From Candidatus Levybacteria bacterium RIFCSPHIGHO2_01_FULL_41_15 (GTDB lineage Bacteria; Patescibacteriota; Microgenomatia; Levybacterales; UBA12049): a DNA stretch of 64,000 nucleotides. Of the stretch, positions 99 through 50,428 are shown piece after piece. The first letter of the stretch is position 1. Each line of letters begins with the position of its first letter. Under the pieces are notes generated by a model that was not told the DNA's origin, ran no database searches, and saw nothing but the letters and a program-made list of their open reading frames with translations. The stretch lies in assembly GCA_001782165.1 (NCBI GenBank), contig MFNV01000002.1, positions 15,747-79,746 of the forward strand, written 5' to 3'. The translations under genes were made by a program, and so were the position numbers.

Positions 99-105
99 CG
101 AAAAA

Positions 106-1988: not shown

Positions 1989-1990
1989 TT

Positions 1991-3271: not shown

Positions 3272-3273
3272 CT

Positions 3274-3969: not shown

Positions 3970-4751
3970 ATATAAAAATAATCTATGAGGATGAGGATAT
4001 TTTGGTTATTGATAAACCCTCAGGAATTACAGTAAATAGGGCAGATACAGAAAAAGAGGAAACAATACAGGATTGGGCAGAACATTATCTTAAAATCACA
4101 AATCCCAAATTACAAACTCCAAGTAAATTACAAGATTCAAACAATAAAAAAAAATTGGAATTTGGTGCTTTGGATTTGGAATTTGCCATAAGGGCGGGGG
4201 TGGTGCATAGGCTGGATAAGGAAACTTCAGGGCTTTTGCTTATTGCAAAAAATCCGAAGTCTTTTTTGGCTCTTCAGAAACAATTTAAACAAAGGAAAGT
4301 TGAAAAAGTATACCTGGCTCTTGTTCATGGGGAAGTGAGGCCGGATAGAGGAGAGATAAATGTGCCGGTTGGAAGACTTCCTTACAACAGAACAAGATTC
4401 GGAATAGTCGTAGGAGGCAGAGACTCTGTAACAAGTTACAGAGTAATTTCCAATTTCCAATTTCCAATTTCCAATGAAAGATTCACACTTCTTGAACTCT
4501 ATCCCAAGACTGGGAGGACACATCAGATAAGAGTTCACCTAAAATACATTAATCATCCGGTTTTTTCGGATCCTCTCTATGCCGGCAGAAAAACAGCAAG
4601 AAAAGATCGCCAAATTCTCCCCCGTCTTTTTCTCCACGCTTCAAAAATCTCTTTTCAACATCCTAAAACAAACAAGATAATTTTTCTTGAAAGCCCGCTC
4701 CCACAGGAACTAGTTAATTTTTTATCGACTCCTTCCGAGGTGTCAATATAA
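3966..4751 (+). CDS. RluA-family 23S rRNA pseudouridine synthase
   Basis: Catalytic motif HRLDKETSGLLLIAKN and conserved RluA/RluD core; 4-nt overlap with the upstream ORF. Confidence 0.85.
   Translation: MNIKIIYEDEDILVIDKPSGITVNRADTEKEETIQDWAEHYLKITNPKLQTPSKLQDSNNKKKLEFGALDLEFAIRAGVVHRLDKETSGLLLIAKNPKSFLALQKQFKQRKVEKVYLALVHGEVRPDRGEINVPVGRLPYNRTRFGIVVGGRDSVTSYRVISNFQFPISNERFTLLELYPKTGRTHQIRVHLKYINHPVFSDPLYAGRKTARKDRQILPRLFLHASKISFQHPKTNKIIFLESPLPQELVNFLSTPSEVSI
4447..4474 (+). repeat. 4 perfect tandem copies of heptamer tttccaa inside the rluA-family CDS (encodes ISNFQFPISNE)
   Basis: Seen directly; unit length is not a multiple of 3, so any copy-number change shifts the reading frame. Confidence 0.8.
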
Positions 4752-7420: not shown

Positions 7421-7446
7421 ATGTCAAGATAGAAATATTATAATAA

Positions 7447-8203: not shown

Positions 8204-8204
8204 C

Positions 8205-9032
8205 ATGAATTTTAGAAGAAAAGCGAGAATGAAAGGGAATAGAGTGGTAAAGACGCTTGTCAAGCTTACCAAAAGAGAGAAATTTATATTCTCTGTAATA
8301 ATCCTTTCCGTAGGTCTCTTTATTGCCGAACATCTTTTGGGGAAATCGGGAATTTATACGGTTTTTACTCTGGCAGTATTTGCTGACATCTTCTTATTTA
8401 TAGCTTTATATAATGACCTTAAAGAAAATTTTTACTGGCAAGTTTTTATTCTCCCCTTTTTCTTTAGTCTCGCATTTGGTCTTTTCTTCTTTCTTGCCCC
8501 CGCGCGGTATTTAACCCGAATCTTCACGACGTCTCTTTATGCTATTGGTCTTTATTCTCTATATCTTAGTCAAAATATTTTCACTGTTTCATCTATCAGG
8601 ACCATTGCTCTTTTATCATCTGCTCGAACCGTTTCTTTTGTAATAACTATAGTTTCTTATTTCTTCTTATCTAATGTACTTTTTTCCCTTCATCTTAATT
8701 TTTTCCCTTTTATTTCATCCCTTTTTCTTTATACGTTTCCTCTTGTTATCTATTCTGTCTGGATTCATACTCTTGAAAAAAACTTGAACTTAAATCTTCA
8801 CTGGTCCCTGCTTTTAACGCTTCTTTTTCTTGAGGTTGGCGGTATGCTTTGGTTATGGCCAAGCACACCGACTGTTCTTGCTATTTTTTTGACCGGGGTT
8901 TTTTATACTGTAGTAGGTCTTTCTCAAGTTTGGATTGACAGAAGACTGTTTAAGAGTATCATGTGGGAATATATTTGGGTTGCCTGCGTAGTGCTAGTAA
9001 CTTTATTAATTTTTACTTCGTGGCGCGGCTAA
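8205..9032 (+). CDS. hypothetical polytopic membrane protein
   Basis: 275 aa, 7-8 hydrophobic helices. Confidence 0.4.
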   Translation: MNFRRKARMKGNRVVKTLVKLTKREKFIFSVIILSVGLFIAEHLLGKSGIYTVFTLAVFADIFLFIALYNDLKENFYWQVFILPFFFSLAFGLFFFLAPARYLTRIFTTSLYAIGLYSLYLSQNIFTVSSIRTIALLSSARTVSFVITIVSYFFLSNVLFSLHLNFFPFISSLFLYTFPLVIYSVWIHTLEKNLNLNLHWSLLLTLLFLEVGGMLWLWPSTPTVLAIFLTGVFYTVVGLSQVWIDRRLFKSIMWEYIWVACVVLVTLLIFTSWRG

Positions 9033-9836
9033 ATCCAGTATGACTTTTGAAAAAAAGTGGTGCTGGATAAATTTTTACCCCCTAAGACTGGGGAAGAGGG
9101 GAGAAGGTCAACCTCATGGAGGCCCCCAAAGCGTCCCATAATATGATGATACAGTTTGATGCAGATTAAATTATAGGATATTTTTTTCCGAAAATTATTT
9201 GTCAGATTTTGTTTTCATGCTAAACCGATATAAGTTTTCACAGTTTTACCTAGCGATTCTCTTTTTTTGTGTGTTTCTTGCAATAGATTTCAACCCAAAG
9301 GCAAATGAAAAAAAGTCGAACGGCTCCTTCTTTACTCTCTTATGGTGAATAAATAATGTTTGCCAAAACGCACAAATTTGAGGCTGAAAATTGATATTTA
9401 GCTTGATTTTGCAATCTAAATAAGACTCCTATACGAAGACAGGGAGTGAGGAAGATTTTTAAATTAAAATAGAAAGTAAGAGATAAAAGACAAAAACAGT
9501 TCTCTGTGGGAGGAGTACGTACCTTTCTTGTTCTATCTCCCTTTTTTTAGTTCCTCCATAAATAGTTTTTCAGAAAATGGCGAGTAAGGCATGCCGGGAA
9601 GCGAGAACTGATTATGTCGTACAATAATACTTTTACGACGTCTCTCGTGCTTGCTTCTTGGGGGAAGTGGCTTAAACCAGATAAAAAATCAAAGGTTAAA
9701 TATTAAAAATTGTAATATCCTATTGTCCATCCTCTATTTTATATTTACTATTTAATATTTGATATTCCTGTGCGCTCCCCTACTATAGGATTCACCTAGG
9801 AAATTTTTTCTTGACTTTTTTTGTTTAATTGTTAAA

Positions 9837-10571
9837 ATGTTCAAACTTATGAGCGTAGAAAGGTCTTTTGGTCAACCACCGGTAGAAGTTTCCTCATTTA
9901 GGGCTATACAGCTGGTAGGAAGTTCTGTCGAACTTCAACCAATCCGGCTAGAGCCAATTCCTATATCAAGAGAAGGAATTCTATTTTCTAGAATTGATGA
10001 GGAAAAAGATGTCGAGGCTTCGAATCAAGCGCCAGAGGCAAATCAAGACGGTGAGCCAATCCCGGTTCCTGTAAATGGAGATTGGGAGCCGTTTAATTTA
10101 GATCCGCATCAATCACAGAATTTTGTAAATCTATATGGTGGTCCGTTTTCCCAGCAAATGGAGCTCAACAGAACAAATGCCGAGAGACTCTTGCAAGCTG
10201 CAGGAATTGAAGGAAAAGTTATAATTGCCGATTTGCCAATGGATAGATCAAGATCGATAGCTGGTGTTAATACGGATGGATCTGTTACGGGACGAAGAAG
10301 ATTATTCTGGGGAGAAAAAGTTCAGGAAGAAAATGGCTCACAATCTTTAGTAAGATCAATTCCTGAGGGTTGGAGAATCGAAATCCCCGGGCAAGAAATG
10401 ATGGAAGAACTCTCAAGAAAAAAAAGCAAAACACCAATGGGTGAGAGATTTATTGCAAAAATTAATCAGCAGTTGAGACAAGCCCTAAGTGAATTAATCA
10501 TAAAAGAAAAACTTACTCCCAAAAATCCGCATTTCGATACAAGAATTTTTTTTCCGCCATGCCCGTTATGA
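9837..10571 (+). CDS. hypothetical protein
   Basis: 244-aa ORF with no recognisable motif; preceded by ~800 bp lacking ORFs. Confidence 0.3.
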   Translation: MFKLMSVERSFGQPPVEVSSFRAIQLVGSSVELQPIRLEPIPISREGILFSRIDEEKDVEASNQAPEANQDGEPIPVPVNGDWEPFNLDPHQSQNFVNLYGGPFSQQMELNRTNAERLLQAAGIEGKVIIADLPMDRSRSIAGVNTDGSVTGRRRLFWGEKVQEENGSQSLVRSIPEGWRIEIPGQEMMEELSRKKSKTPMGERFIAKINQQLRQALSELIIKEKLTPKNPHFDTRIFFPPCPL

Positions 10572-10958
10572 GTATATCAGTTGTTCATATTGTTACCCTT
10601 GAATCTTTTAATTGGGTTGATATACCTCTATATTTTAATTTAAATCTTTTTAACAATCTAGTCGGAAGAATAATGGGTCATTGGGCGAAAGAAAAATTGT
10701 ATGAAAATTTTTTGCCTCCGCTTGAGGTTGATAGGGTTTGGAGGGGGTTTTTGTTCACGAATATAAAGGGGAGAAATCTGGTCCGTCTGGCGGCGAGATA
10801 AATCCGCCTACGTCAAGAGACTTCGGCGAGACGAGTCCGCCCTTACGAAGAAAATAGAGTTTAAGTTTAAAACCTAAAGAGCTTTAACTACAGGTATACT
10901 AGTATATCTTCGCTAAGTATACTTGAAGTTCTAGATTTAACAGCCCAGCTGTATAAGA

Positions 10959-11663
10959 TTATTGAGAGGGATGATTAAGTATTGCAGCCTCTTGAGGTTG
11001 CGGTTTTACAAAAATACCGAAAATATAACCAATTTCCCCGGGCTCATTGGGATCTAATCCTGGCTTTCTGTATACGAATGCAGCCCATTCAGCAGGGTCA
11101 TTCGATACTCCCGGATGAGGTTTGGTACCTTTTACAATAACAACGTGTTCAATAATTGCTCCTTGGGGAAGAGTTCCGATAATTCGAGTAAACTGACCGG
11201 TTGGAGTACTTGTTCCCGGATGATCCCGTACGTTTACAGGAGTTCCCTCTTGCTGCATTTTTAAAAGTTCTTCATAGGTTGCGCCTGCCGGAACTACCTT
11301 TACCCTCTCAAAAATTTTCTCTCCTTCTCCAAGAGGAATTGTGCCGTTTAATTTTCCTGCGGTTTCTTCATTGAACCTTCTTATTTCTTCGTTCTCATTA
11401 TAAAAACTTACAACTGTCTCTCCAGCTTTTTGAACACTTTCAGCACCCGCAGTTACAGCATCTTCAATCTTCTCTGCGGCTTTTTCCGGTAAATTCTGCT
11501 CAATTGCAACACCTGTTCCCACAAATCCCAAAAGAGCTGCGGCGCGAATAAGAGCACCTTTAAAAGAAATTTTATTCTGGGACTTTGGGGAGTGTTCTCT
11601 TTGAAACCTTGGAACATCAAGGTTCTTTCTATAAGGTTGTCCGCTAGTTCCTATCTCTGTCAT
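10959..11663 (-). CDS. hypothetical secreted/membrane-anchored protein
   Basis: 234 aa; hydrophobic segment ALIRAAALLGFVGTGVAI near the N-terminus. Confidence 0.35.
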   Translation of the reverse strand: MTEIGTSGQPYRKNLDVPRFQREHSPKSQNKISFKGALIRAAALLGFVGTGVAIEQNLPEKAAEKIEDAVTAGAESVQKAGETVVSFYNENEEIRRFNEETAGKLNGTIPLGEGEKIFERVKVVPAGATYEELLKMQQEGTPVNVRDHPGTSTPTGQFTRIIGTLPQGAIIEHVVIVKGTKPHPGVSNDPAEWAAFVYRKPGLDPNEPGEIGYIFGIFVKPQPQEAAILNHPSQ

Positions 11664-11838
11664 ATTTTGATATTATCAGTAAATAAGATTTGTTGTCAAC
11701 GCCGATAAACTCCGATTTAATCGGCGTCAATGTTTGACATAGTTAGTTGGTTAGTTAGTTCCTTGTTGTTCGCAATTTGACATTCATGTTTCCATGTCGC
11801 ACAATTTAGTTATTGGTTAGTTAGTTCTTAGTTTTTCG

Positions 11839-12210
11839 ATGGATAACAAATTTAGATTTGAAGACTTAAACGTATATCAAGAAGCGTTGAGATTTGTAGA
11901 CAGCATATACTCTTTGACTTCCAAATGGCCAAAAGATGAAATTTTTGGATTAACAAATCAATTTCGTAGGGCTTCAGTATCGATTGCGTTAAACATAGCT
12001 GAAGGGACTAGTCGTACCAAGAGGAACTTTAGGCATTTTCTGGATCTATCTAAGGGATCGTGTTTTGAGTGCGCTGCAATCTTATCAATTCCTAGAAGCA
12101 GGAAATATATCAATCAAGAGGATTTTGATTCACATTATGATTGGGTTAATAAACTTGCCCGCATGATAAGCAAATTAAAAACTTCATTACGAATAACCAA
12201 TAACGAATAA
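11839..12210 (+). CDS. four-helix-bundle protein (23S rRNA intervening-sequence protein family)
   Basis: 123 aa; LNVYQEALRFVDSIY ... SVSIALNIAEGTSR ... FRHFLDLSKGSCFECAAIL matches the TIGR02436-type four-helix-bundle family. Confidence 0.7.
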   Translation: MDNKFRFEDLNVYQEALRFVDSIYSLTSKWPKDEIFGLTNQFRRASVSIALNIAEGTSRTKRNFRHFLDLSKGSCFECAAILSIPRSRKYINQEDFDSHYDWVNKLARMISKLKTSLRITNNE

Positions 12211-12220
12211 CAGACTAACC

Positions 12221-13150
12221 ATGAAATTGTTGCCCGATTTGATCGACGAATTCCTAGAATATCTTGAGATTGAAAGAAACTGCAGCAAACTTACTATAAG
12301 AGATTACAGGCATTATCTTGAGGTTTTCAATGACTGGTTTTCTAAAAACTCTTCAGGCCAGTCGATAAAAAATTTAGATCTTCAGACAGTTCGAAAATAC
12401 AGGGTTTATCTTTCAAATAAAATTGATAAGAAAGGATCAACTCTTAAAAGAATAACACAAAATTATTATGTGATAGCCCTTCGCTCTTTTCTAAGATACC
12501 TTATAAAAAACGACATAAAAACTTTAGAACCATCAAAAATAGATCTGCCAAAAGCAGAAAGCAGAAGCTTAAAGTTTTTAGACAGAGACCAAATAGACAG
12601 GCTTGTGATATCCATAGATACTTCAGAACCTGAGGGCAAGAGAAACAGAGCGATTTTGGAACTTCTCTTCTCCACCGGTCTTCGTGTTTCAGAATTGGTT
12701 TCTCTTAATCGGGACAAAATAAATTTAGACCGTCGAGAATTTGGAGTTATTGGCAAAGGAGGAAGGGCTCGGGTTGTTTTTATTTCCGATAGGGCGGCTC
12801 AATGGCTTTCGGAATATTTTAAAACTCGCGAGGATATCTACGATCCCCTTTTCATTCGTTATTCCGGAAAAGAAATTCCCGAAAACCGGGGAGAAAAAAT
12901 GAGACTTACCGCCCGATCAATTGAAAGAATTGTTAAAAAATATGTGAGAGTGGCGCGTTTGCCGGTGGATGCAACAGTTCATACTCTTCGCCATTCTTTT
13001 GCAACGGATCTTCTCACAAACGGCGCTGACCTTCGCTCGGTTCAGGAAATGTTGGGCCACAAAAATATCTCAACAACCCAAATCTACACCCATGTAACAA
13101 ATAAGCAACTCAGGGATGTGCATGAGGCATTTCATAGTGGTAATAAGTGA
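12221..13150 (+). CDS. tyrosine site-specific recombinase, XerD/XerC-like
   Basis: N-terminal core-binding domain and C-terminal catalytic motifs (RHSFATDLL, LGHKNISTTQIYTHV). Confidence 0.85.
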   Translation: MKLLPDLIDEFLEYLEIERNCSKLTIRDYRHYLEVFNDWFSKNSSGQSIKNLDLQTVRKYRVYLSNKIDKKGSTLKRITQNYYVIALRSFLRYLIKNDIKTLEPSKIDLPKAESRSLKFLDRDQIDRLVISIDTSEPEGKRNRAILELLFSTGLRVSELVSLNRDKINLDRREFGVIGKGGRARVVFISDRAAQWLSEYFKTREDIYDPLFIRYSGKEIPENRGEKMRLTARSIERIVKKYVRVARLPVDATVHTLRHSFATDLLTNGADLRSVQEMLGHKNISTTQIYTHVTNKQLRDVHEAFHSGNK

Positions 13151-13233
13151 GAATTTATCCTGTTCCCTGCCCGCCTTTGGAGGGAGTTCATCGAAGGATC
13201 CACGAGGTTTTCCATTTTAGGAATAAATAAAGG

Positions 13234-13893
13234 TTACCAGCACTTGGAAGTTTCCGAGGACCAGACGGCATAAGCCCAGGGATCTCCGGAGCCGGTAACT
13301 TGGCTTGCACAATTTTCGGGAGTGACGATCTCACCCCAGACAGAATCGCCATCGCGTGTGGGATCAATAAAGTTTTTGTCAGCATCATCATAATTTTCTG
13401 GGGTACAGTGGAGGATTATTTTATACTCAACCCCGTCTGATTTGTAGAGAAAACCAGCATGATCTGAATTGCAGTTGTTATTTTTGCTGCCCGGTGTATG
13501 TAGTCGCGGATCCTGCGGTAGCCTTTTTATATGATTCGGTGCCAAGTTAGGGATATAACCATTTGGTCCTTCGTAACCCATATTGCCGTAATCAACAGCA
13601 TCACCAAAAACTTCGTTGTTAACGCCGGTCAAAGGATAATTGCCGTTTACTGCCATGTAGGCTTCAAGGGCCCTTTTTACTTGGGAGAGCTGAGTTTTTC
13701 TTTGGGCATCCCTTGTTTGTGCCATCCGTTTTCCCGGATTAACAACAACCAATACCATAGCTGCTAAGACTCCTAAAACAGCGATGACGATTAAAAGTTC
13801 AATTAGGGTAAATCCCTGTCGGCCCGGGGTTTTTACTTGAGATTTATTGCGCTTTTTCTGACAATTAATAACTTGCAGCTGGGCAGGTTTCAT
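13234..13893 (-). CDS. type IV pilin/pseudopilin (prepilin-type N-terminal cleavage/methylation domain)
   Basis: G-FTLIELLIVIAVLGVLAAMVLVV prepilin signal after a ~26-aa basic leader. Confidence 0.65.
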   Translation of the reverse strand: MKPAQLQVINCQKKRNKSQVKTPGRQGFTLIELLIVIAVLGVLAAMVLVVVNPGKRMAQTRDAQRKTQLSQVKRALEAYMAVNGNYPLTGVNNEVFGDAVDYGNMGYEGPNGYIPNLAPNHIKRLPQDPRLHTPGSKNNNCNSDHAGFLYKSDGVEYKIILHCTPENYDDADKNFIDPTRDGDSVWGEIVTPENCASQVTGSGDPWAYAVWSSETSKCW

Positions 13894-13949
13894 TTAGTTT
13901 AGTATAGTATAAAATGAAAATTTACAAAATTTACTTAAACGCCTTAGAT

Positions 13950-15029
13950 TTACACTCCTTTTCTTGCTGTCTCATAAAATTCAACTAGGCTTGTAACAAG
14001 CTCAGGGTTCCCTGACAGAAGGGCAATTTCCTCTGTTCCTGCCCGAACTCCACTTTGCATAAGATTATGAGAGCCAAACATTACGATTTGCCCATCCACA
14101 ATCAAAAGCTTTGCATGGAGTCTGCCATCAAATTTTTTAAAAGGAATTCGTTGTCTTTTAACGCCCATAAAAAATCTATTCCATAGATTAATTAACTTGT
14201 ATACACCCTCTACAACTGTCGGCATTAATACTTCAACGTCCACTCCCCTATTCTGGGCTTTTTTAAGAGTCCTAAGAAATTTTCCATCCGGAGTAAAAAA
14301 AGAAATATTTCTTACACTTTGCCGGGCACTATCAACTAGATTTGCGGCAGTATCAAGTACCAAGGATTCACCAGGTTTTCCTCTGTCTATAATAAGACTA
14401 CTGCCGTCTGAGAAATCAACCTTATAATCTTTTTTGGGTTTATTTTCATTTACTCTGGCAAACTGAGCTATAAGAGCCTCGACAATTTCTTGATCAGTAA
14501 CCTTCACCACGAAATCTATTCCCTTAAATGATGCATCGCTTATATTTACTCCTCCAATCCATGCAATATTATCAACAATGTACATTTTTATATGGTTTCG
14601 GCCGAAGAACGGAAGAACTCTCTGAAGAGAAGCAGGAGAGTTTAGAAAATTTACTTTTACCCCCACTTCGGAAAGCCTTCTATAAGTTTGGTCATTACGA
14701 TTTGCACAGAATCTATGGTATCCGTTTCCCAAAAGCGGAAAGTCTTTTTTGATATTTATTCCCGGTTCAGATGAAAGCCTTGAAAACCAGTCAATGTTGA
14801 GTCTTGTATCAAGACCTTTCTTAACAGCTTCTTCAAAAATATGAAAAAATGCACTACCCGGATGGCCTGTCTGCATATCCATTGCCTGTCCCCACACTCT
14901 TTCTTTTGCTCTTTGTGTTTCGAGTCTAAAGTCGGCAAGAAACTCAAATGGTGTAAGAACCGCAAAATTCGGGGCAGGTTCTCTCCTCGCCTCTAAATTA
15001 AATGGATAATTTACTTCAACGCTGTTCAT
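13950..15029 (-). CDS. phospholipase D superfamily protein with two HKD motifs (soluble)
   Basis: HIKMYIVDNIAWIGGVNISD and HAKLLIVDGQIVMFGSHNL (HxK(x4)D(x6)GSxN); no TM segments. Confidence 0.7.
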   Translation of the reverse strand: MNSVEVNYPFNLEARREPAPNFAVLTPFEFLADFRLETQRAKERVWGQAMDMQTGHPGSAFFHIFEEAVKKGLDTRLNIDWFSRLSSEPGINIKKDFPLLGNGYHRFCANRNDQTYRRLSEVGVKVNFLNSPASLQRVLPFFGRNHIKMYIVDNIAWIGGVNISDASFKGIDFVVKVTDQEIVEALIAQFARVNENKPKKDYKVDFSDGSSLIIDRGKPGESLVLDTAANLVDSARQSVRNISFFTPDGKFLRTLKKAQNRGVDVEVLMPTVVEGVYKLINLWNRFFMGVKRQRIPFKKFDGRLHAKLLIVDGQIVMFGSHNLMQSGVRAGTEEIALLSGNPELVTSLVEFYETARKGV

Positions 15030-24885: not shown

Positions 24886-25625
24886 AGAAAATTTGAAATA
24901 ATTCCTGCAGTTTCTTCGGGATTTGTGAATTGAGGGGAATGGCGGGCATTATTGATTATATATAATTTGCTATTGATTATTTTTTGATTTAATATTTTCG
25001 CATCAGATAAAGGAGTAATAGAATCTTTTCTTCCCCATATTATAATAGTAGAAGCAAGTATTTTTTCTATTTCAAGAGTTTTGTCTGCCTCCATTAGATT
25101 TATCATTGTTTTTTTCATGTTTTCGGAGGCATCTTTGTAGTCGGTCTCTCTTGCCAGAAAATATAAAAGGTTTTTCGCTGTTTTTGATGATAAAAATTTT
25201 CTTCCGGTTTTTGCAATTGCTTTAAACACCACTCTTTTAACTTTTAGGGGCAGTTTGTCATGAAAAACTCCGGCACTGTCAATTAAAACTAGTTTTGAGA
25301 TCTTATCTTGATATTTTAGGGCAAAAGCCATGGCAATACGTCCTCCATTTGAATGCCCGATCAGATTAATGCTTCCTGTTTCATTTTTAACTATATTAAA
25401 AAGCCAATCTACATAGTCTTCAAGCGTCCATGGATTTTCTATTTTTTTAGTCAAGCCCGGAATCTTAAGGAGTACAGGATTTAGCTTACTCTGTTTAAGA
25501 TGAGCAATAAAAGGGCTCCACTTTTCAAGCGAATAAGTCCAGCCATGGAGTATGTATATTGATGGTTGATGATTGAGGATTGATGATTTTCTCATAAGCC
25601 GAATTTTTTTCTTCTTTTCTCCCAC
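24882..25625 (-). CDS. alpha/beta-fold hydrolase
   Basis: Nucleophile elbow LIGHSNGG. Confidence 0.6.
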   Translation of the reverse strand: MGEKKKKIRLMRKSSILNHQPSIYILHGWTYSLEKWSPFIAHLKQSKLNPVLLKIPGLTKKIENPWTLEDYVDWLFNIVKNETGSINLIGHSNGGRIAMAFALKYQDKISKLVLIDSAGVFHDKLPLKVKRVVFKAIAKTGRKFLSSKTAKNLLYFLARETDYKDASENMKKTMINLMEADKTLEIEKILASTIIIWGRKDSITPLSDAKILNQKIINSKLYIINNARHSPQFTNPEETAGIISNFL

Positions 25626-26899
25626 ACTTTTTCTCTCCGGGGCAATTTATCTATATTTCTTTTATCCTCAAGGAGATTTTCTATAACGCCTTCTAGAAAT
25701 CTTGCCCCTTTAAATAAAATTGTCTCTCCCCCTCTTAGATTCTTTTCAATATATGAAAGAGCTTCCTTGGGCATTATAAAACTCACGACTTTTTTGTCAT
25801 TAGTTCTTAGTTTTTCGTTCTTAGTTCTTAGTTTTGTATACGTATACTTAGAGAGTCTTGGACCAACCAAAATGATTTTTCTTGCTTTTATCTTTGCAAT
25901 TTTTTCAGAAAGGTTCTCATGCTCCTCTCTCTCCTCATTTCCAAGTTCAATCATGTCTCCTAGAACCAGCCACTTATCTTTTGAGGGATAGGTGGAAAAC
26001 ATATTTAGCACAGCACTAACAGCTTCAGGAGTTGCATTGTAAGTGCTGTCTATAATAGTAGTGTTTTTAATTCCATTAAAGATTTTGCTTCTGCCAGGCG
26101 GAATTGAAAAATTTTTAAAACTAAGGTCAGCTTTTATATTCAGTTTATCAAGAACTACGAACATCATTTGAAGAGAGTAAAAAAATTCTTTGGGAAGGAG
26201 AAATTTAAATTCAAAAGTTTTGTCTTCCGTACGGTAAACCGTACCGCTGTACCCTACCTTATACTCTTTAAGATTCTTAATGCTTATTTTTACGACTTTC
26301 CCTTTTGCTCTTTTCAGTTCTTCGGCAATAAAATTTAAGTCCCCATTTACAACAGCAAGTTCTGAAGTTTTTTCTATAAAAAAACCATATTCAAATGCAA
26401 TAGCCTTCTCAACTTTCCTAAATTTCCCCTTTGTAGCTTCCGAGTTAAAGTTTGCAGTATGCGTTCGGCTTACCCCTGTCCAAAGGGTTATTTTGGGTTT
26501 AAGAAGCGTTGCCAAGAATTTTCCTTCTCCTGGCCTGTCGCAATCCGTCTCGACAACATAAAATTTTTCACTCGGATTTTTCTTAAAAAGCATAAAGGGA
26601 GCAAGAATAAACAAAAACAGCCATTCATAGACCATTAAAGTTTTTCTTTTAAGACCTAGAATATCAAAGGGAACGCCATAAGAGCTGTTTGCAAGGTGCG
26701 AATACTTTGCCTTATTCCCCATCTGGGATTCTATAAGATGAAGAAGAGTAGTTTTGCCGCTTGAGCCTGTCACTACTATTATATAAGGTTTCCATCGCAA
26801 TAATTTTAGCTTTGCAAGAAATCGGAAGTAATGAGCTCCCGGAAAGTAAAAAAAATTTTTAAGCTTTGAAAGCATGAATGATAACTCTAATTCTATCAA
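25592..26899 (-). CDS. Mur ligase family protein (MurF-like UDP-MurNAc-peptide ligase)
   Basis: ATP-binding loop VTGSSGKTT, DSTYNATPEAV motif. Confidence 0.7.
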   Translation of the reverse strand: MIELELSFMLSKLKNFFYFPGAHYFRFLAKLKLLRWKPYIIVVTGSSGKTTLLHLIESQMGNKAKYSHLANSSYGVPFDILGLKRKTLMVYEWLFLFILAPFMLFKKNPSEKFYVVETDCDRPGEGKFLATLLKPKITLWTGVSRTHTANFNSEATKGKFRKVEKAIAFEYGFFIEKTSELAVVNGDLNFIAEELKRAKGKVVKISIKNLKEYKVGYSGTVYRTEDKTFEFKFLLPKEFFYSLQMMFVVLDKLNIKADLSFKNFSIPPGRSKIFNGIKNTTIIDSTYNATPEAVSAVLNMFSTYPSKDKWLVLGDMIELGNEEREEHENLSEKIAKIKARKIILVGPRLSKYTYTKLRTKNEKLRTNDKKVVSFIMPKEALSYIEKNLRGGETILFKGARFLEGVIENLLEDKRNIDKLPRREKVWEKRRKKFGL

Positions 26900-29477: not shown

Positions 29478-29522
29478 AAATAATTTGAAATTTAAAATTT
29501 AAAATTTGAAATTTTATAGGGT

Positions 29523-32635: not shown

Positions 32636-33517
32636 TTGTCAAGAATCGGTTTGTGTTATTGTAAAGATATGGTTATAGCTCTTTTATTTTTTCTTTTTAT
32701 CATTGGAATATGCGTGGGGAGCTTTTTAAATGTCTTGATTGATAGAATTCCACAGGGGCAGTCCCCCCTTAAAGGAAGATCATATTGCGACCATTGCAGG
32801 AAGTCTCTTGCCTGGTATGACATGGTTCCCCTTTTCTCTTCCGTTTTTCTAAAAGGAAAATGCAGATACTGCAAGTTGTCTATCTCATCTTATTATCCTC
32901 TGGTAGAGTTAGTGACAGGTTTAATGTTTGTTTTGACATTTCTATATTTAAGCAATCAGCAACTAGCAACCAGCAATCAGTTTAACAATATAATAATAGA
33001 GCAATTTAACAATTTAGCAATAAATTACATTTATTATTTATTTATTCTTTCCTCCTTCATAGTAATTTTTTTTACGGATCTTAAATATGGGATTATCCCA
33101 GATAAGATTTTATACCCCGCCGTACTAATATTTACCATTTACCATTTACCATTTACCATTTATTCTCCAATCCTCAATCATCAACCATCAATTATAAATA
33201 ATATATTCTCTGGAATGGGTGCTTTTTTATTCTTCTTTCTTTTGTACTTTATAACCCACGGGAAAGGTATGGGCTTTGGGGATGTGAAACTTTCCTTTCT
33301 TCTGGGACTTTTCTTAGGATTTCCCAAAATTATTATAGCTTTGTATACAGCATTCTTGACAGGAGCAATTATAGGCTCCATACTGATTATATGGGGAAAA
33401 AAGAAGTTAAGAGGTACTACGATCCCTTTTGGTCCTTTTCTAATCCTCGGAGCCGCGTTAAGCCTTTTTTTCGGAGAATTCATAATTCGTCTGGTTTTAC
33501 CCTGGTTGAACTTTTAG
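32636..33517 (+). CDS. pilD: prepilin peptidase / N-methyltransferase (A24 family)
   Basis: N-terminal Cys-x-x-Cys ... Cys-x-x-Cys zinc-binding segment, polytopic membrane core; carries in-frame low-complexity inserts encoded by 7-nt repeats. Confidence 0.85.
   Translation: MSRIGLCYCKDMVIALLFFLFIIGICVGSFLNVLIDRIPQGQSPLKGRSYCDHCRKSLAWYDMVPLFSSVFLKGKCRYCKLSISSYYPLVELVTGLMFVLTFLYLSNQQLATSNQFNNIIIEQFNNLAINYIYYLFILSSFIVIFFTDLKYGIIPDKILYPAVLIFTIYHLPFTIYSPILNHQPSIINNIFSGMGAFLFFFLLYFITHGKGMGFGDVKLSFLLGLFLGFPKIIIALYTAFLTGAIIGSILIIWGKKKLRGTTIPFGPFLILGAALSLFFGEFIIRLVLPWLNF
32951..32978 (+). repeat. 4 imperfect tandem heptamers (agcaatc agcaact agcaacc agcaatc) inside pilD
   Basis: Seen directly. Confidence 0.7.
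33131..33151 (+). repeat. 3 perfect tandem heptamers tttacca inside pilD (encodes FTIYHLPFTIY)
   Basis: Seen directly; 21 nt keeps the frame, and gain or loss of one unit would frameshift pilD. Confidence 0.8.
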
Positions 33518-33987
33518 TTGTTGTTGGAATTATTGGGATTATGGCGGTCGGGCTTTTTTCTGTTATTGATCCAGTTGGACAACTTCAAAAATCAAGAGAT
33601 GCAGAGAGGAAATCTGATCTCAAAGAACTTCAGAAGGCTCTGGAGCTTTACTATCAAGATTATGGTATCTATCCATCCCAAACAAGTTATAAAATCTTAA
33701 ATCTTAATTGGGGAAACCCCTGGGGTCCTTATCTGCCGACTTTACCCCAAGACCCATCCAGTACAAGAAAGTATATTTACTATACTCCTTCAGATGGGCA
33801 GTCATATTGGCTTTATGCTTCTTTGGAAAAAACAGATGATCCTCAGCTTTGTCCAAATTTAGATGTTACAAACAAAGAATGTCCAAGCATTGGGACCAAT
33901 ATAACAGGCTATACGGTTAAGTCTTGTGGGACAAGCAATGATAAACCTTGTAATTTCGGACTTTCAAGCCCAAATACCACACCATGA
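33391..33987 (+). CDS. type IV pilin-like protein; start codon uncertain, 5' end overlaps pilD
   Basis: Prepilin motif SG-FTLVELLVVVGIIGIMA; the ATG at 33391 implies a ~35-aa leader overlapping the pilD 3' end in another frame. Confidence 0.6.
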   Translation: MGKKEVKRYYDPFWSFSNPRSRVKPFFRRIHNSSGFTLVELLVVVGIIGIMAVGLFSVIDPVGQLQKSRDAERKSDLKELQKALELYYQDYGIYPSQTSYKILNLNWGNPWGPYLPTLPQDPSSTRKYIYYTPSDGQSYWLYASLEKTDDPQLCPNLDVTNKECPSIGTNITGYTVKSCGTSNDKPCNFGLSSPNTTP

Positions 33988-34523
33988 GAATAAATTTCAA
34001 ATTTCATCCATTCGGTAAACTCAGGGCAAGAATTTCGCGCCGCCGGCATAGCCTCTGGCGACGCACGGCAAATTTTAAATTATTACGGGGATTTACTCTT
34101 GTTGAGCTTCTTATTGTCATCGCTATAGTCGGGGTACTCTCCACCCTTGTAATTGCGAATTTTGCAGAAGTAAGAAAAAGAGCAAGGGATTCTCAGAGAA
34201 AATCAGATGTAAGACAAATTCAATCAGCAATTGAGCTAATAAGATCAGATACCGGAAGCTATCCCGGATCTCTCCCCTCCTGCGGATCTTCTCTTACAGC
34301 AGGATCCCCTGCCACAACTTATATGCAAAAAGTACCCTGTGATCCAAGCGGCGCAACCTACTGGAATGGAGGAATTTATTATTACCTTCCGAGCGGTTCC
34401 ACATATACCCTTGCCTCTTGTATGGAAAATGCTCAAGAATCAGGATCCGATATCCAAGAAACATCCCCTGGCGGCAGTGGAACTTGTTCATCCGGCAAAT
34501 GGTATGTTTTAACCAGTCCTTAA
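33984..34523 (+). CDS. pseudopilin (GspG-like) with long basic leader
   Basis: RG-FTLVELLIVIAIVGVLSTLVIANF preceded by ~39-aa Arg/Lys-rich leader. Confidence 0.65.
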   Translation: MRINFKFHPFGKLRARISRRRHSLWRRTANFKLLRGFTLVELLIVIAIVGVLSTLVIANFAEVRKRARDSQRKSDVRQIQSAIELIRSDTGSYPGSLPSCGSSLTAGSPATTYMQKVPCDPSGATYWNGGIYYYLPSGSTYTLASCMENAQESGSDIQETSPGGSGTCSSGKWYVLTSP

Positions 34524-35522: not shown

Positions 35523-36947
35523 ATGAAGAAAATAACAGAAAAGAAAATTGGAGTGGGTTCATCTCGCATCACTTCCCACGAATTGCTTCAAAATTTAATA
35601 TTAGGAAGCCGGAGGCATTTGGCAAGTCGTGATGGGGAAAACGAACGATTTTCTGGAAGTGGTGCGGGGTTTACACTTTTGGAGCTATTGGTAGTAATAA
35701 TAGTTATCTTTGTTGTGGGAGCTGTAATTATGGGAACTATTGTTTCGTCTTTGCGCATAGCCGACAAGGCTAAATCTATGGATGTTGTACGCACAAACGG
35801 AAATTACGCTATATCCCAGATGTCCAGAATGATAAAATACGCCGAAGAGTTCAATGGAGTAAGCACAGATGGCGTTGTTTATACCGCAAATTGCAGTTCC
35901 CCAATTGTCATTTCCACACCTGCGGTGGTTTCTGTTCCCTCGCCTCGTTTGGGATTTTTTTCAAGAATTGCAAATTTAATTCAAGGATTTGGCGATCTGG
36001 GCAAGAAAGAAATTTCCTCCGTATTTTCAAAACTTGCAAGCCTAATCCCAATGCTTGATAGCCCAAAAACATTTGTTACGCGTCAAGTTGCCCCCGCAAC
36101 GTCTGCTACTTTAAGACCAACTGGCCCTTGGGCTGAAAGTAGATGGACTAGGACTGGCTGTACAGCTAATTGGCAATGTGTTGATGAGGAAACCTTAAAT
36201 ACTTCAGATTATGTCCAAGCCCCATCATCTGGCAGTACTATTGACTGGTACGCAACCAGTTTCACCCCTCCTGCTGGTTCGACCATTACTGCAATTCGCG
36301 TCTTTGCCCAAGCCCGCAAGACTGATGCTGATACTACCTATTTGCTTCTTGGATATCGCAAATCTGACGGCAGTTTCACCTTTAAAGACCCAGGCGTAGC
36401 ATTAACTACAAGTTGGGCATCAACAGTTCCTTATGCCAGTTGGACAACTAGTTTGCCAGCTGTCAGTAGATTTCCCATCCAAATTGGCATTCAAGCTGGA
36501 GAAGTTTCAACAGTTAGAGTAGCTCAAGTTTGGGCTGAAGTTGACTATATTGCTCCATCACCTACCCCCACCCCAACTCCTACGCCTACACCCACACCCA
36601 CCCCTACACCTACCCCCACCCCAACTCCCACATCAGGGCCTACTCCAACCCCTATCTCATACAATTTCGTAAAAGTAACCGGATTTGACGGTGGAACTAC
36701 GGTTTTTTCCTGTCTTTCGGGGGATCCAGGAGAAATCGCTTCAGAAAGCGGAGAGCTTAAGCAGTCACTTATAGATACAAATTCTGTAAGGGTGGATAAT
36801 TGCTCTATCTATTGTACCCAAGAGGGCTTATCATCCCCCCCTCTTATAAATATATCTTTTACGCTTTCCAAAAAAACAACAAGCCAGTTTTTTGAGCAAA
36901 AAACTGCTATCCCCTTTCAGACATCAGTCGGCATAAGAAACTACTAA
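35523..36947 (+). CDS. large minor pilin-like protein with (PT)n linker and C-terminal globular domain
   Basis: AG-FTLLELLVVIIVIFVVGAV prepilin motif; 17 consecutive Pro-Thr dipeptides. Confidence 0.55.
   Translation: MKKITEKKIGVGSSRITSHELLQNLILGSRRHLASRDGENERFSGSGAGFTLLELLVVIIVIFVVGAVIMGTIVSSLRIADKAKSMDVVRTNGNYAISQMSRMIKYAEEFNGVSTDGVVYTANCSSPIVISTPAVVSVPSPRLGFFSRIANLIQGFGDLGKKEISSVFSKLASLIPMLDSPKTFVTRQVAPATSATLRPTGPWAESRWTRTGCTANWQCVDEETLNTSDYVQAPSSGSTIDWYATSFTPPAGSTITAIRVFAQARKTDADTTYLLLGYRKSDGSFTFKDPGVALTTSWASTVPYASWTTSLPAVSRFPIQIGIQAGEVSTVRVAQVWAEVDYIAPSPTPTPTPTPTPTPTPTPTPTPTPTSGPTPTPISYNFVKVTGFDGGTTVFSCLSGDPGEIASESGELKQSLIDTNSVRVDNCSIYCTQEGLSSPPLINISFTLSKKTTSQFFEQKTAIPFQTSVGIRNY
36561..36653 (+). 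repeat. hexanucleotide ccNacN repeat encoding (PT)17 linker
   Basis: Seen directly. Confidence 0.8.
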
Positions 36948-48511: not shown

Positions 48512-50384
48512 GTTTTATTTTGAGCTTAGTCTTGAGGCGGACAAGAATCCTTTCTCTTATCTTCTCTACTTCCCCGGATGTTAAATTTCTTCGTGGATTT
48601 TGATAAACAATATGAAAGGTTCTAATATTTTGGAATTTTTCAAGAAGACTTACTTCTCTTATCAAAGGACTTTGATCTTTTATCTCTCTTATAATATCTC
48701 CAGTTTTAATTTTATCAGCCATCATTAGTGCTAGGTCTTCTTTGATTGGAGGATACTTGGGGATAGGCTTGAAGGTTTTATTAAGATTTATTTTTTCAGA
48801 AAACTCATCGTAATTTAATTCAAAAAATATTCCTTCTTCAATTGCTTCTACGTACTGCGATGGATCTTCTTTGATTCCCAGCTCTTCAAATAATCTCTCA
48901 ATCACCCCTTTTACTTTCACAAAATTCATTTTTGTTGAAATTCCCGAGAGAAAATATGATTCTTCTTTTTTATCTAAGTTAGCTCCTCTATACACCTTAC
49001 CCAATTCAAATAAATTTATATCCTCAAAATTGGGTTTATTAAGAGCTACGGCTTTTTTGAGATTGATCATAAGAGTTGGCCTTAAGTACTCAAATTCTCT
49101 ACTTACGGGATTGTCAACTCGCAAAGTTTTGTCCGGATCCATTTCGTTATCGGTTAAATCTTTTTCAGAAATCAGACTGTACGTATAGATTTCTGAAAAA
49201 CCGGCCTCTTTAAATATATTTTTAACTTTTTCTTCTAATCTATAATCTCTATAATAAGGCGGAGGTTTTACGGGAGTCTGTCCGGATGGTATGGTTTTTG
49301 GGAAATTGTTGTATCCATAGATTCTCGCAACTTCTTCTATAAGATCTTCTTCTGCCTTAAGGTCATTTCTATATGTAGGTATTTCTGTTCTTATTGTACC
49401 TTTTGAGATTTTTTCGGGCGAAAGATTTAAGTTTTCTAAAATCTTTAAGATTTTGCTTTCCGCAATAGAAATCCCAAGAACATTTTTAAGTTTTTCTAAA
49501 CTTAAATCAAGTCTCCATGGATTAAATTCTTCTTTTTTAATATCGTAAATGTTACTTGCTATTTTTCCTCCTGCAATTTCAAGCACAAGATTGACGCATC
49601 TTTGCAGGGCATTCAGTGTCCCGCCCGCATTTACTCCTCTTTCGAATATGGAGGAAGCTTCGGAGCGAAGACCCAAAGACAAGGAAGCTCTTCTTATCAG
49701 CGAAGGAACTTCAACAGGGACTCTTATAAAAATAGTTTTAGTTTTTTCATAAATTCCCGTATTCTCTCCTCCTTTTATGCCGCATAGATCAATAATTTTT
49801 TCATCATCAGAAATTACCACAGCATTTTTTGGCAAATGGTATGAAATTCCGTCCACGCTTGTAAATCTTTCCTCTCCTTTTGTCTGATGCACCCTCATTG
49901 CCGCGCCTTTAATTTTGTTGTAGTCAAATGCATGAATAGGATTTCCAAGCTCAAGCATTACATAATTTGTAATATCAACTATATTGCTTATGGGACGTTG
50001 TCCGATTTTAATTAATCTTTCCGAAAGCCATTTCGGAGATTCTTTTACAGTTATGCCGTCTATTATTATTCCGGTAAATCTTGGATTTATTTTGGGATCA
50101 GTTTGTATTTTAAGAGGCAAAATTTTCTTGAGACTTAAGTTTATATTTACGCCCTTGAAGTGTTTAATGCTCTTGCCTTCAATTGCCGCAATCTCTTGAG
50201 CGATCCCAAGTATAGAAAGAAGATCAGGGCGATTCGGTGTTATTTCAAATTCAAAAATAATATCATCTTTATCTTTTATTATCTTTTCAGTACTTAATCC
50301 TACTTCAGTAAGACGATCTCCCAGTTCTCTTGGAGAAAGTTTCGTATCAACATATTCCTTGAGCCAAGATAAAGGCGCCAGCAT
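48501..50384 (-). CDS. pheT: phenylalanyl-tRNA synthetase beta subunit (short form lacking the N-terminal OB tRNA-binding insert)
   Basis: MLAPLSWLKEYVD N-terminus, B3/B4 and B5 domains; 627 aa vs ~790 aa typical. Confidence 0.85.
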   Translation of the reverse strand: MLAPLSWLKEYVDTKLSPRELGDRLTEVGLSTEKIIKDKDDIIFEFEITPNRPDLLSILGIAQEIAAIEGKSIKHFKGVNINLSLKKILPLKIQTDPKINPRFTGIIIDGITVKESPKWLSERLIKIGQRPISNIVDITNYVMLELGNPIHAFDYNKIKGAAMRVHQTKGEERFTSVDGISYHLPKNAVVISDDEKIIDLCGIKGGENTGIYEKTKTIFIRVPVEVPSLIRRASLSLGLRSEASSIFERGVNAGGTLNALQRCVNLVLEIAGGKIASNIYDIKKEEFNPWRLDLSLEKLKNVLGISIAESKILKILENLNLSPEKISKGTIRTEIPTYRNDLKAEEDLIEEVARIYGYNNFPKTIPSGQTPVKPPPYYRDYRLEEKVKNIFKEAGFSEIYTYSLISEKDLTDNEMDPDKTLRVDNPVSREFEYLRPTLMINLKKAVALNKPNFEDINLFELGKVYRGANLDKKEESYFLSGISTKMNFVKVKGVIERLFEELGIKEDPSQYVEAIEEGIFFELNYDEFSEKINLNKTFKPIPKYPPIKEDLALMMADKIKTGDIIREIKDQSPLIREVSLLEKFQNIRTFHIVYQNPRRNLTSGEVEKIRERILVRLKTKLKIKPKD

Positions 50385-50428
50385 AAGAATTAAGAATTAT
50401 GAATTAAGAATTATGAATTTTATTTTCA

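What the first reader, a model, noticed from the sequence alone, without database searches (positions are those of the whole stretch)
32951..33151. Heptanucleotide tandem repeats inside pilD: a possible slipped-strand switch for piliation
pilD carries two tracts of 7-nt repeats in-frame. One is three perfect copies of tttacca (33131-33151). The other is four imperfect copies of agcaaNN (32951-32978). They encode low-complexity inserts in a loop of the prepilin peptidase. Because 7 is not a multiple of 3, gain or loss of a unit would frameshift pilD and stop pilin processing. An identical style of repeat occurs in the rluA-family gene (separate finding). Heptamer SSRs within coding regions are a recognised phase-variation device in some host-associated bacteria. 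They are unexpected in otherwise repeat-poor reduced genomes.
Basis: inference. Interest (0 to 1): 0.55.

Follow-up and report, generated by a model that had tools for sequence, protein, structure and literature searches.

The report
Heptamer repeat tracts in pilD loops
The 7-base repeats inside this prepilin peptidase gene are real. They belong to a class of short heptamer arrays scattered through the genomes of this bacterial lineage, they sit in two tolerant outer loops of the enzyme, and they look like fixed loop filler that can occasionally slip, not a demonstrated on/off switch for pili.

Summary
Observation confirmed and extended. The window is from a Candidatus Levybacteria (CPR) genome. 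Its pilD (32669-33517) carries (ATTTACC)4.7, perfect, at 33130-33162 (not 3 copies); (AGCAAYC)4.3 at 32951-32980; and (CAATCAT)3.6 at 33168-33192. All are far beyond chance.

The arrays are not pilD-specific. Period-7 arrays pervade the window and 80 related loci: 59 perfect arrays of >=3 copies against ~0 expected. They use 76 AT-rich units. 59% are internal to proteins, including housekeeping enzymes. In 65 pilD orthologues, 50 of 51 arrays lie in the same two outer loops.

Loop 2's arrays are orthologous and equal in length in relatives of 66-73% identity. No OFF-phase pilD occurs among the 74 related loci that could be scored. About 16 contigs of this population are identical. None of 8 predicted slippage alleles exists among ~15 billion proteins.

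Slippage is nevertheless real. The sister perfect array (AATTTCC)4.4 in the RluA-type gene has a natural one-unit-loss allele that truncates the protein.

Verdict: a slippage-prone but fixed loop feature. A piliation switch is unproven. Read-level data were not available.

The parts
32669..33517 (+). pilD, type IV prepilin peptidase / N-methyltransferase (282 aa; the ORF is open from TTG 32636)
   Evidence: Pfam A24_N_bact and Peptidase_A24. Identical to P0001/OGH23665.1. Sits in a T4P cluster with pilB, pilT, pilC and pilins.
32951..32980 (+). (AGCAAYC)4.3 imperfect heptamer array. Encodes S-N-Q-Q-L-A-T-S-N-Q at the outer end of a TM helix and loop 1.
   Evidence: TRF score 39, 82% matches, beyond chance. 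Lineage-specific: no relative has this peptide, and loop 1 holds different heptamer arrays in each lineage.
32981..33021 (+). Period-8/16 imperfect repeat (TTTAACAA-like) encoding FNNIIIEQFNNLAI, the older part of loop 1
   Evidence: TRF. The IEQF(S/N)N motif is shared with P0002, P0004, P0012 and L004.
33077..33079 (+). Codon of the first catalytic aspartate (FFTDLKYG)
   Evidence: Invariant column D138 in alignment A1. Read directly from the sequence.
33130..33162 (+). (ATTTACC)4.7 perfect heptamer array. Encodes I-F-T-I-Y-H-L-P-F-T-I-Y at the outer half of a TM helix leading into loop 2.
   Evidence: TRF score 66, 100% matches. The orthologous array has the same length but is imperfect in L001, L002 and L004. 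pLDDT drops to 62 here.
33168..33192 (+). (CAATCAT)3.6 imperfect heptamer array encoding the rest of loop 2 (PILNHQPSII)
   Evidence: TRF. The orthologous array is more perfect in L001, AATCATC x3.4.
33281..33283 (+). Codon of the second catalytic aspartate (GMGFGD, the GxGD motif). Lost in every +-1 or +-2 unit frameshift allele.
   Evidence: Invariant D206 in A1. Truncation simulation.
33391..33987 (+). Downstream pilin ORF. It overlaps the pilD 3' end in another frame, and its G|FTLVELL motif begins 22 nt before the pilD stop.
   Evidence: Pfam N_methyl and T2SSG. The overlap is conserved in relatives.
4445..4475 (+). Sister perfect array (AATTTCC)4.4 inside the RluA/RluD-type pseudouridine synthase gene (3966-4751). 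Polymorphic in nature.
   Evidence: TRF score 62. A one-unit deletion allele occurs in L084/L093, giving the 185-aa P0132, against the intact 261-aa P0241.
29482..29514 (.). Intergenic (AATTTRA)4.7 array between pilB and pilT, an example of the same class outside genes
   Evidence: TRF score 52. It contains stop codons in all frames. Invariant in all population contigs inspected.

Best explanation
The pilD tracts are three members of a lineage-wide class of short AT-rich heptanucleotide arrays, typically 4-5 copies and 31-34 nt. Replication slippage creates and remodels these arrays throughout Levybacteria/Microgenomates genomes. Inside genes an array survives only if it is stop-free in all three frames, keeps the reading frame, and lies where extra residues are harmless.

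In PilD those places are the two loops at the ends of transmembrane hairpins, on the face opposite the catalytic aspartates. There the arrays are translated into 7-residue-periodic filler peptide, because 3 units = 21 nt = 7 codons. Loop 1 turns over between lineages. Loop 2's arrays are old and fixed in length.

The perfect (ATTTACC)4.7 array is physically slippage-prone, so pilD-null variants must arise occasionally. This is best seen as a mutational liability or by-product, not an evolved piliation switch.

Shown: existence of the tracts, lineage-wide excess, loop restriction, conservation in relatives, and slippage at the sister array. Inferred: slippage as the origin, tolerance as the filter, and the extracytoplasmic location of the loops.
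For: - Period-7 excess in the window: 21 against 5.7 for >=2 copies, and 2 against 0 for >=3 copies.
- Period-7 excess in 80 related loci: 59 against 0 for >=3 copies, versus <=7 for each other period of 5-15 nt (period 5: 7; periods 6 and 8: 6 each).
- 188 arrays use 76 units. 111 are internal to conserved proteins.
- Window hosts include RluA-type, Mur ligase, RecG, XerC/D-type and hydrolase genes.
- 89 of 123 CDS arrays have sense-strand units free of stop codons, and 79 of those have stops on the antisense strand.
- 50 of 51 arrays in 65 pilD genes lie in the same two loops, with many different units.
- Loop 2 is orthologous and equal in length in L001, L002 and P0002-P0008.
- AlphaFold model: pLDDT 84 overall. 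Helices 76-102, 111-141, 146-165 and 176-196, with low confidence at 101-110 and 161-170. The catalytic D138 and D206 lie at the opposite helix ends.
- No OFF-phase pilD in relatives.
- No pilD length variant in the population.
- A natural one-unit loss at the sister array proves the slippage mechanism.
- Heptamer SSR over-representation in bacteria, and a polymerase-slippage rationale for 7 nt, are already in the literature (PMC4692102; PMC4679880).
Against: - Synonymous sites in loop 2 are more conserved than in the rest of the gene: 18/22 against 91/175, with 0.44-0.56 expected from codon usage. This needs either repeated homogenising slippage, which implies passage through OFF states, or a nucleotide-level function.
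- The sharp array-length mode at 31-34 nt, also seen in intergenic DNA, is not predicted by simple stepwise slippage.
- Preferred units recur across genomes.
- pilD is 4-5 fold enriched for arrays relative to its flanks. This could reflect selection and not only tolerance.
- Only consensus assemblies were compared, not reads.
Confidence: 0.6

Rival explanations
1. True contingency locus. The perfect ATTTACC array is maintained because reversible gain or loss of a unit switches PilD, and hence all pilin processing, off and on in a subpopulation.
For: - The unit is not a multiple of 3, the array is perfect and lies in an ORF, and a +-1 unit change removes the GxGD catalytic motif.
- The same kind of array slipped by one unit in a natural population and truncated the RluA-type gene.
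- The excess synonymous conservation and perfection of the array fit repeated loss/gain cycles.
- Arrays also occur in pilin leader regions of the same cluster.
- Heptamer SSRs do mediate phase variation elsewhere (PMC2651432).
Against: - 0 variants in about 16 contigs.
- 0 of 8 predicted alleles among ~15 billion proteins.
- 0 OFF alleles in the 74 related loci that could be scored.
- Loop-2 length is fixed across species.
- Only 4.7 copies, against 6-38 in known cases.
- The array is mid-gene (0.56 of gene length), not 5'-proximal.
- Identical arrays sit in Mur ligase, RecG and intergenic DNA, where a switch makes no sense.
Confidence: 0.2
2. Surface-loop diversification. Heptamer arrays are favoured in PilD's outward-facing loops because they rapidly generate new loop sequences, for example to escape phage or host recognition in a cell without an outer membrane.
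For: Loop 1 carries a different array in nearly every lineage, and 35 of 65 pilD genes have at least one recognisable array. pilD is enriched for arrays relative to its flanks. The loops lie opposite the catalytic face (inference).
Against: Arrays are equally found in cytoplasmic enzymes and intergenic DNA. Loop 2 is conserved, not diversified, among close relatives. No test of positive selection was possible on unalignable loops.
Confidence: 0.1
3. Nucleic-acid-level element. Arrays of about 32 nt act at the DNA or RNA level, for example as binding sites for a heptamer-reading single-strand-binding protein such as a Csp/S1-type factor, or as structural DNA. Some happen to lie within genes.
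For: - A uniform length of about 31-34 nt in coding and non-coding DNA.
- Excess synonymous conservation in loop 2.
- Many arrays lie in short intergenic spacers or just upstream of conserved coding sequence.
- Precedents exist for intergenic heptamer repeats proposed as regulatory sites, and for CspB binding heptamer repeats (PMC4679880).
Against: 76 different units argue against one sequence-specific binder. Loop 1 arrays are not conserved at all. There is no strand or position rule beyond stop-codon avoidance.
Confidence: 0.08
4. Chance low-complexity sequence or an assembly artefact.
For: The genome is AT-rich (38% GC). k=31 assemblies break at the arrays.
Against: Shuffles give about 0 such arrays. 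Independent assemblies, including a k141 MEGAHIT contig, JGI contigs and the NCBI genome record, give the identical sequence.
Confidence: 0.01

Closest known systems
SSR-mediated phase variation (contingency loci) with heptanucleotide units, e.g. Haemophilus influenzae hmw1A/hmw2A (TGAAAGA)13-38, (AACAACC)1-13 in a TonB-dependent receptor, and (AATTTTG)14 inside hmw1a (PMC2651432)
   Same: 7-nt unit, not a multiple of 3. The tract lies inside an ORF. A one-unit change frameshifts the gene. A natural one-unit-loss allele exists at the sister array in the RluA-type gene.
   Different: Only 4-5 copies. The tract is mid-gene. Hosts are mostly housekeeping genes. The pilD tract has the same length across species, and no strain or population variation was seen at it.
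Over-represented heptameric SSRs of prokaryotic genomes (Mrazek et al. 2007 as cited in PMC4692102 and PMC4679880; GGGNATC in Xanthomonas/Nostoc; TAACTGA in Beggiatoaceae; heptanucleotide repeats of Calothrix)
   Same: Period 7 specifically enriched over neighbouring periods. Arrays dispersed genome-wide, with a few copies per array (a 'preference for four units'; 2-6 copies). Polymerase slippage has been proposed as the origin.
   Different: [quoted passage not shown] Here there are dozens of AT-rich units, and about 59% of arrays are internal to proteins and are translated. G-quadruplex formation cannot apply.
Tandem repeats creating new disordered protein regions in Borg elements (PMC9879509)
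   Same: Perfect, recently formed, independently arising tandem repeats inside ORFs that add low-complexity peptide segments.
   Different: In this report's reading (that paper was not opened here), Borg in-ORF repeat units are multiples of 3. Here the unit is 7 nt, so each array is read in all three frames and a single-unit change is a frameshift.
Rickettsia palindromic elements inserted in frame in protein-coding genes (recalled from general knowledge, not checked here)
   Same: Non-coding-type repeats tolerated inside essential genes at structurally permissive surface positions.
   Different: RPEs are mobile palindromic elements of about 100-150 bp. These arrays are ~30-nt tandem arrays with no inverted repeats and no single consensus.

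Membership tests
Type IV prepilin peptidase (PilD, MEROPS A24A) | N-terminal A24_N domain with four conserved cysteines, plus a Peptidase_A24 domain | tested here: met
   PF06750 scores 106 bits and PF01478 58.8 bits, both above their cut-offs. C41, C44, C66 and C69 are invariant.
Type IV prepilin peptidase (PilD, MEROPS A24A) | Two catalytic aspartates, the second in a GxGD motif | tested here: met
   D138 (FFTDLKYG) and D206 (GMGFGD) are invariant in 29 sequences.
Type IV prepilin peptidase (PilD, MEROPS A24A) | Genomic association with T4P/T2SS machinery and substrates | tested here: met
   Flanked by T2SSE x2, T2SSF and several N_methyl pilins.
Type IV prepilin peptidase (PilD, MEROPS A24A) | Similarity to a solved A24 structure | tested here: inconclusive
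   No PDB hit by sequence or profile. No Foldseek hit with E<=0.001.
SSR contingency (phase-variable) locus | Perfect tract of a unit that is not a multiple of 3, placed so that unit change alters expression | tested here: met
   (ATTTACC)4.7 is perfect and lies in the ORF. A +-1 or +-2 unit change truncates the protein before the GxGD motif.
SSR contingency (phase-variable) locus | Tract-length polymorphism between strains or within a population at that locus | tested here: not met
   pilD is identical in about 16 contigs from several samples. 0 of 8 predicted alleles are on record. Consensus level only. The criterion is met for the rluA sister array.
SSR contingency (phase-variable) locus | ON and OFF alleles among related genomes | tested here: not met
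   In the 74 of 80 related loci where pilD motifs could be located, all motifs found were in one frame; 51 had N- and C-terminal motifs plus an uninterrupted ORF between them.
SSR contingency (phase-variable) locus | Copy number in the range shown to be hypermutable, and 5'-proximal or promoter placement | tested here: inconclusive
   4.7 copies against 6-38 in H. influenzae heptamer loci. The tract lies at 0.56 of gene length. Even so, a 4.4-copy array did slip in rluA.
SSR contingency (phase-variable) locus | Reversible, high-frequency switching with a phenotype | not testable with these tools
   Needs read-level data or experiments. The organism is uncultivated.
Over-represented heptameric SSR class (Mrazek-type long-unit SSRs) | Period 7 enriched over shuffles and over neighbouring periods | tested here: met
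   Window. 80 loci: 59 against 0 for >=3 copies, versus <=7 for each other period of 5-15 nt.
Over-represented heptameric SSR class (Mrazek-type long-unit SSRs) | Dispersed across the genome and shared by related genomes | tested here: met
   About 26 TRF period-7 rows across the 64-kb window. Arrays are present in 63 of 81 sources, with uneven density of 0-5.3 per 10 kb.
Over-represented heptameric SSR class (Mrazek-type long-unit SSRs) | Predominantly intergenic, with one dominant unit (as in GGGNATC or TAACTGA) | tested here: not met
   76 units. 111 of 188 arrays are internal to conserved proteins.

The most novel reading that the evidence does not exclude
Levybacteria and related CPR bacteria carry a genome-wide population of intrinsically ~32-nt, slippage-prone heptamer arrays that do two things. 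They continually build and remodel loop, leader and terminal segments of proteins. They also stochastically and reversibly knock out individual genes, pilD and the RluA-type gene included. This would amount to a distributed contingency system in a reduced-genome episymbiont. The nucleotide-level maintenance of the arrays (excess synonymous conservation, a fixed length mode, recurrent units) would reflect selection for that mutability or for an unknown array-specific mechanism.
Probability: 0.2. Interest if true: 0.7.

Novelty: new variant of a known kind. Interest (0 to 1): 0.45.

Why it matters
If the arrays are only tolerated slippage products, the finding is mainly a caution:
- Heptamer arrays in CPR genes should not be read as phase switches without population data.
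- They fragment k=31 assemblies and mislead gene callers.

It also documents something not found in the searched literature (two full-text searches pairing CPR/Patescibacteria with repeat or phase-variation terms):
- A CPR lineage in which heptamer SSRs are abundant, multi-unit and mostly intragenic.
- These SSRs are read in all three frames to make 7-residue-periodic loop and leader segments.
- One array was caught in a natural frameshift polymorphism.

That makes three questions directly testable with existing metagenome reads:
- How fast do such arrays slip?
- Do uncultivated, genome-reduced bacteria use SSR-based gene switching?
- Why do 7-nt units and ~32-nt arrays recur across unrelated bacteria?

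Tried and rejected
1. Pattern scans of metagenome contigs, with fixed anchors and variable gaps, for length variants at both tracts. They found nothing at all, not even the reference allele. The collection lacks this population, so the result is uninformative. An earlier local test pattern failed because of a miscounted spacer, corrected.
2. The '+3 units in-frame expansion' model predicts PilD loop lengths quantised in 7-aa steps. This was not seen: segment 2 has a base state of 48 aa and the window's class is 56 aa. Rejected as a simple history.
3. Scan for OFF-phase genes, defined as arrays where +-1 or +-2 units would lengthen the spanning ORF, and 'between two conserved parts' arrays. The hits were gene boundaries, stop-containing intergenic arrays, or the pilD/pilin overlap. 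None was a real frameshift.
4. Indel-length spectrum between related species representatives. There was no 7-nt spike, but the pairs are only 80-87% identical and the best pairs lack arrays. Uninformative.
5. The apparent 5' skew of 'CDS' arrays was partly an artefact of longest-ORF gene calls. It was redone using cross-genome conservation. A residual N-terminal skew remains, largely from pilin leaders, in a sample biased to the T4P neighbourhood.
6. L086, where no pilD gene was called, looked like an OFF allele. Its DNA is 100% identical to the window.
7. PDB sequence, profile and Foldseek searches gave no usable homologue.
8. Codon bias as the explanation of loop-2 synonymous conservation: rejected.

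Full report
**What is there**

The window comes from a Candidatus Levybacteria (CPR/Patescibacteria) genome. The gene product is 100% identical to OGH23665.1. The gene at 32669-33517 (+) is a type IV prepilin peptidase:
- It has the Pfam A24_N_bact and Peptidase_A24 domains.
- It has four invariant cysteines and two invariant aspartates, in FFTDLKYG and GMGFGD.
- It sits in a cluster with pilB, pilT, pilC and several pilins.

The reported repeats are real but were under-described:
- The perfect tract is (ATTTACC)4.7 over 33130-33162 (33 nt), not three copies.
- (AGCAAYC)4.3 is at 32951-32980, as stated.
- A third heptamer array, (CAATCAT)3.6, follows at 33168-33192.
- A period-8/16 repeat lies at 32981-33021.

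None of this is chance. Perfect period-7 runs of >=3 copies number 2 against 0.0 in shuffles. TRF period-7 arrays scoring >=39 number 10 against 0.05.

**The tracts belong to a much larger phenomenon**

The window as a whole has about 26 period-7 TRF rows, in genes and between them. In 80 loci (1.26 Mb) from related genomes, fetched through pilD homology, perfect arrays of >=3 copies number 59 for period 7. About 0 are expected, and each other period of 5-15 nt has 7 or fewer (period 5: 7; periods 6 and 8: 6 each).

A more permissive scan finds 188 arrays with 76 different AT-rich units. The pilD unit ATTTACC recurs six times. Using protein conservation on both sides as the criterion, 111 of 188 arrays are truly internal to proteins, 25 lie just upstream of the conserved part, and 42 are intergenic.

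In the window the intragenic hosts are an RluA/RluD-type pseudouridine synthase, a Mur ligase, RecG, a XerC/D-type recombinase and an alpha/beta-hydrolase. This is not the gene set expected of contingency loci.

Units inside genes are filtered for absence of stop codons on the sense strand: 89 of 123, and 79 of those have stops on the other strand. This is expected, because a 7-nt unit is read in all three frames.

**Anatomy in PilD**

In the alignment of 29 homologues, both tracts fall in the only two hypervariable, indel-rich segments. Relatives carry other 7-residue-periodic peptides there: LPFTIYH, FSIFNFQ, RFTIYDL, ESRIMNH. At the DNA level these are heptamer arrays.

Across 65 pilD genes, 50 of 51 arrays lie in these two loops: 31 in loop 1 and 19 in loop 2.

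An AlphaFold model (pLDDT 84, pTM 0.82) gives helices 76-102, 111-141, 146-165 and 176-196. Confidence dips at 101-110 and 161-170. The catalytic aspartates (138, 206) lie at the opposite ends of those helices. I therefore infer that the arrays encode the outer ends and connecting loops of two transmembrane hairpins, away from the active site.

**Is it a switch?**

The frameshift arithmetic is correct. A change of +-1 or +-2 units at either tract gives 96-180-aa products lacking GMGFGD. A change of +-3 units stays in frame.

The available tests are nevertheless negative for pilD:
1. Loop 2's two arrays are orthologous and identical in length in relatives of 66-73% protein identity. They differ only by point substitutions, for example ATTTACC ATTTATC ATTTATC ATTTACC in L001.
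2. In the 74 of 80 related loci where pilD motifs could be located, all motifs found lie in one frame; 51 of these have N- and C-terminal motifs with an uninterrupted ORF between them.
3. Contigs of this same population were fetched through the array-free neighbouring pilin, so that variants were not excluded. They are 100% identical across pilD: about 16 contigs from several samples and assemblers.
4. None of eight predicted slippage alleles exists among ~15 billion proteins. The homology search also returned no truncated near-identical PilD.
5. Copy number and placement differ from documented cases. Phase-variable heptamer SSRs in H. influenzae have 6-38 copies and vary between strains (PMC2651432). 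Phase-variable SSRs tend to be N-terminal, while coding regions generally suppress SSRs mid-protein (PMC3315296). The pilD tracts lie at 0.35 and 0.56 of the gene.

**But slippage is real here**

It has a natural variant.

Contig L084/L093 (ENA ERZ4903070) is 99.93% identical to window 1-14531. It differs by two SNPs, one 1-nt indel, and the deletion of exactly one AATTTCC unit. The result is the 185-aa protein P0132, whose tail MKDSHFLNSIPRLGGHIR is the shifted frame of the window sequence. The intact 261-aa allele P0241 is on 13 contigs and the truncated one on 1.

Imperfect arrays (25559-25588, 25800-25833, 29482-29514, 50384-50419) show no length change in 16-20 contigs each.

A perfect 4-5-copy heptamer array is therefore a genuine indel hotspot in this organism, and the pilD array is of the same kind.

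**A residual signal**

Synonymous sites in loop 2 are more conserved than in the rest of pilD:
- Same-codon fractions are 18/22, 13/15 and 11/15, against 91/175, 86/166 and 61/145 for the rest of the gene.
- Codon usage predicts only 0.44-0.56.
- p is about 0.005-0.03, and the three comparisons are not independent.

This fits homogenisation by repeated unit loss and gain, which would imply transient OFF states over evolutionary time. It also fits a nucleotide-level constraint. It keeps the switch hypothesis alive at modest probability.

**Unexplained**

- Perfect arrays have a sharp length mode at 31-34 nt (27 arrays) and very few at 25-30 nt, in coding and non-coding DNA alike.
- PilD loop lengths are not quantised in 7-residue steps.
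- Array density ranges from 0 to 5.3 per 10 kb among related genomes.
- Certain units recur across genomes.

**Comparison with what is known**

[quoted passage not shown] This is Mrazek 2007, as cited in PMC4692102 and PMC4679880. Those papers also describe GGGNATC repeats with a 'preference for four units' and TAACTGA repeats of 2-6 copies.

Those families are single-unit and mainly intergenic. Here there are many AT-rich units and most arrays are intragenic and translated. Two full-text searches pairing CPR/Patescibacteria terms with repeat or phase-variation terms surfaced no description of such arrays in CPR bacteria among the top-ranked papers; no search for Levybacteria/Microgenomates heptamer repeats as such was run. 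I therefore rate this as a new variant of a known kind. For the pilD claim specifically, it is an ordinary member of that class, not a dedicated piliation switch.

**Verdict**

- Observation: confirmed.
- Interpretation: partly supported. The mechanism is plausible and is demonstrated at a sister locus.
- Decisive missing test: read-level length heterogeneity.

Noticed in passing
window 4445-4475 (in gene 3966-4751); L084 9330-9887; L093: The perfect (AATTTCC)4.4 array in the RluA/RluD-type pseudouridine synthase has a natural one-unit-deletion allele in an otherwise 99.93% identical contig from another sample. It truncates the protein to 185 aa. The intact allele is on 13 contigs and the truncated one on 1.
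   Followed up: yes
window 33391-33540 (pilD 3' end and the downstream pilin): The downstream pilin's G|FTLVELL prepilin motif begins 22 nt before the pilD stop, in another frame. The only canonical in-frame start is ATG 33391, which gives a 34-codon leader and a 127-nt overlap. Public gene calls start at 33541 and lose the motif. The arrangement is conserved: 44 of 65 relatives have the motif within 90 nt of the pilD stop, with the nearest start 33-43 codons upstream in most.
   Followed up: partly
window 33984-34100; related loci just downstream of pilD: The pilin gene at 33984 has a 36-residue leader starting MRINFKFHPF, encoded over an AAATTTC array (33992-34006). Relatives carry longer heptamer arrays in the leader regions of their pilin genes.
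   Followed up: partly
L003 pilD loop 2; proteins P0012, P0016, P0034, P0009, P0025: Some relatives carry a different, GC-richer in-frame insert of about 35 aa in PilD loop 2 (SKEFLQLRSGQAWLSFPLQPATLVQLSTLGVYAN, with a 15-nt GVYAN duplication). It resembles a small inserted element and not a heptamer array.
   Followed up: no
all sources (window and L001-L080): Perfect heptamer arrays show a sharp length mode at 31-34 nt (4.4-4.9 copies) with almost none at 25-30 nt, in coding and intergenic DNA alike. Period-8 arrays are also about 30-31 nt. No explanation was found.
   Followed up: partly
window 4808-4958 versus L095: Twelve differences cluster in 150 nt next to the RluA-type gene in one assembly that is otherwise identical. 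This is a local hypervariable or recombined patch.
   Followed up: no
L088, L098, L099 (Logan contigs): Contigs from k=31 assemblies end exactly at the 31-33-nt perfect arrays. The arrays fragment such assemblies, and this should not be mistaken for polymorphism.
   Followed up: yes
window 11839-13150: A 23S rRNA intervening-sequence protein gene (11839-12210) is followed directly by a XerC/D-type tyrosine recombinase (12221-13150). A heptamer array (12192-12211) spans the stop of the first gene.
   Followed up: no
window 36559-36654 (in gene 35523-36947): A C/A-rich nested repeat (periods 6/18/24/48, CACCCC-like) encodes a Pro/Thr-rich linker in a large protein at the end of the pilus cluster.
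   Followed up: no
L086 (GCA_001783985.1, MFOS01000006.1): A second deposited genome carries DNA identical to the window across pilD, yet no pilD gene is on record there, only short antisense ORFs. This is an annotation gap, not a mutation.
   Followed up: yes
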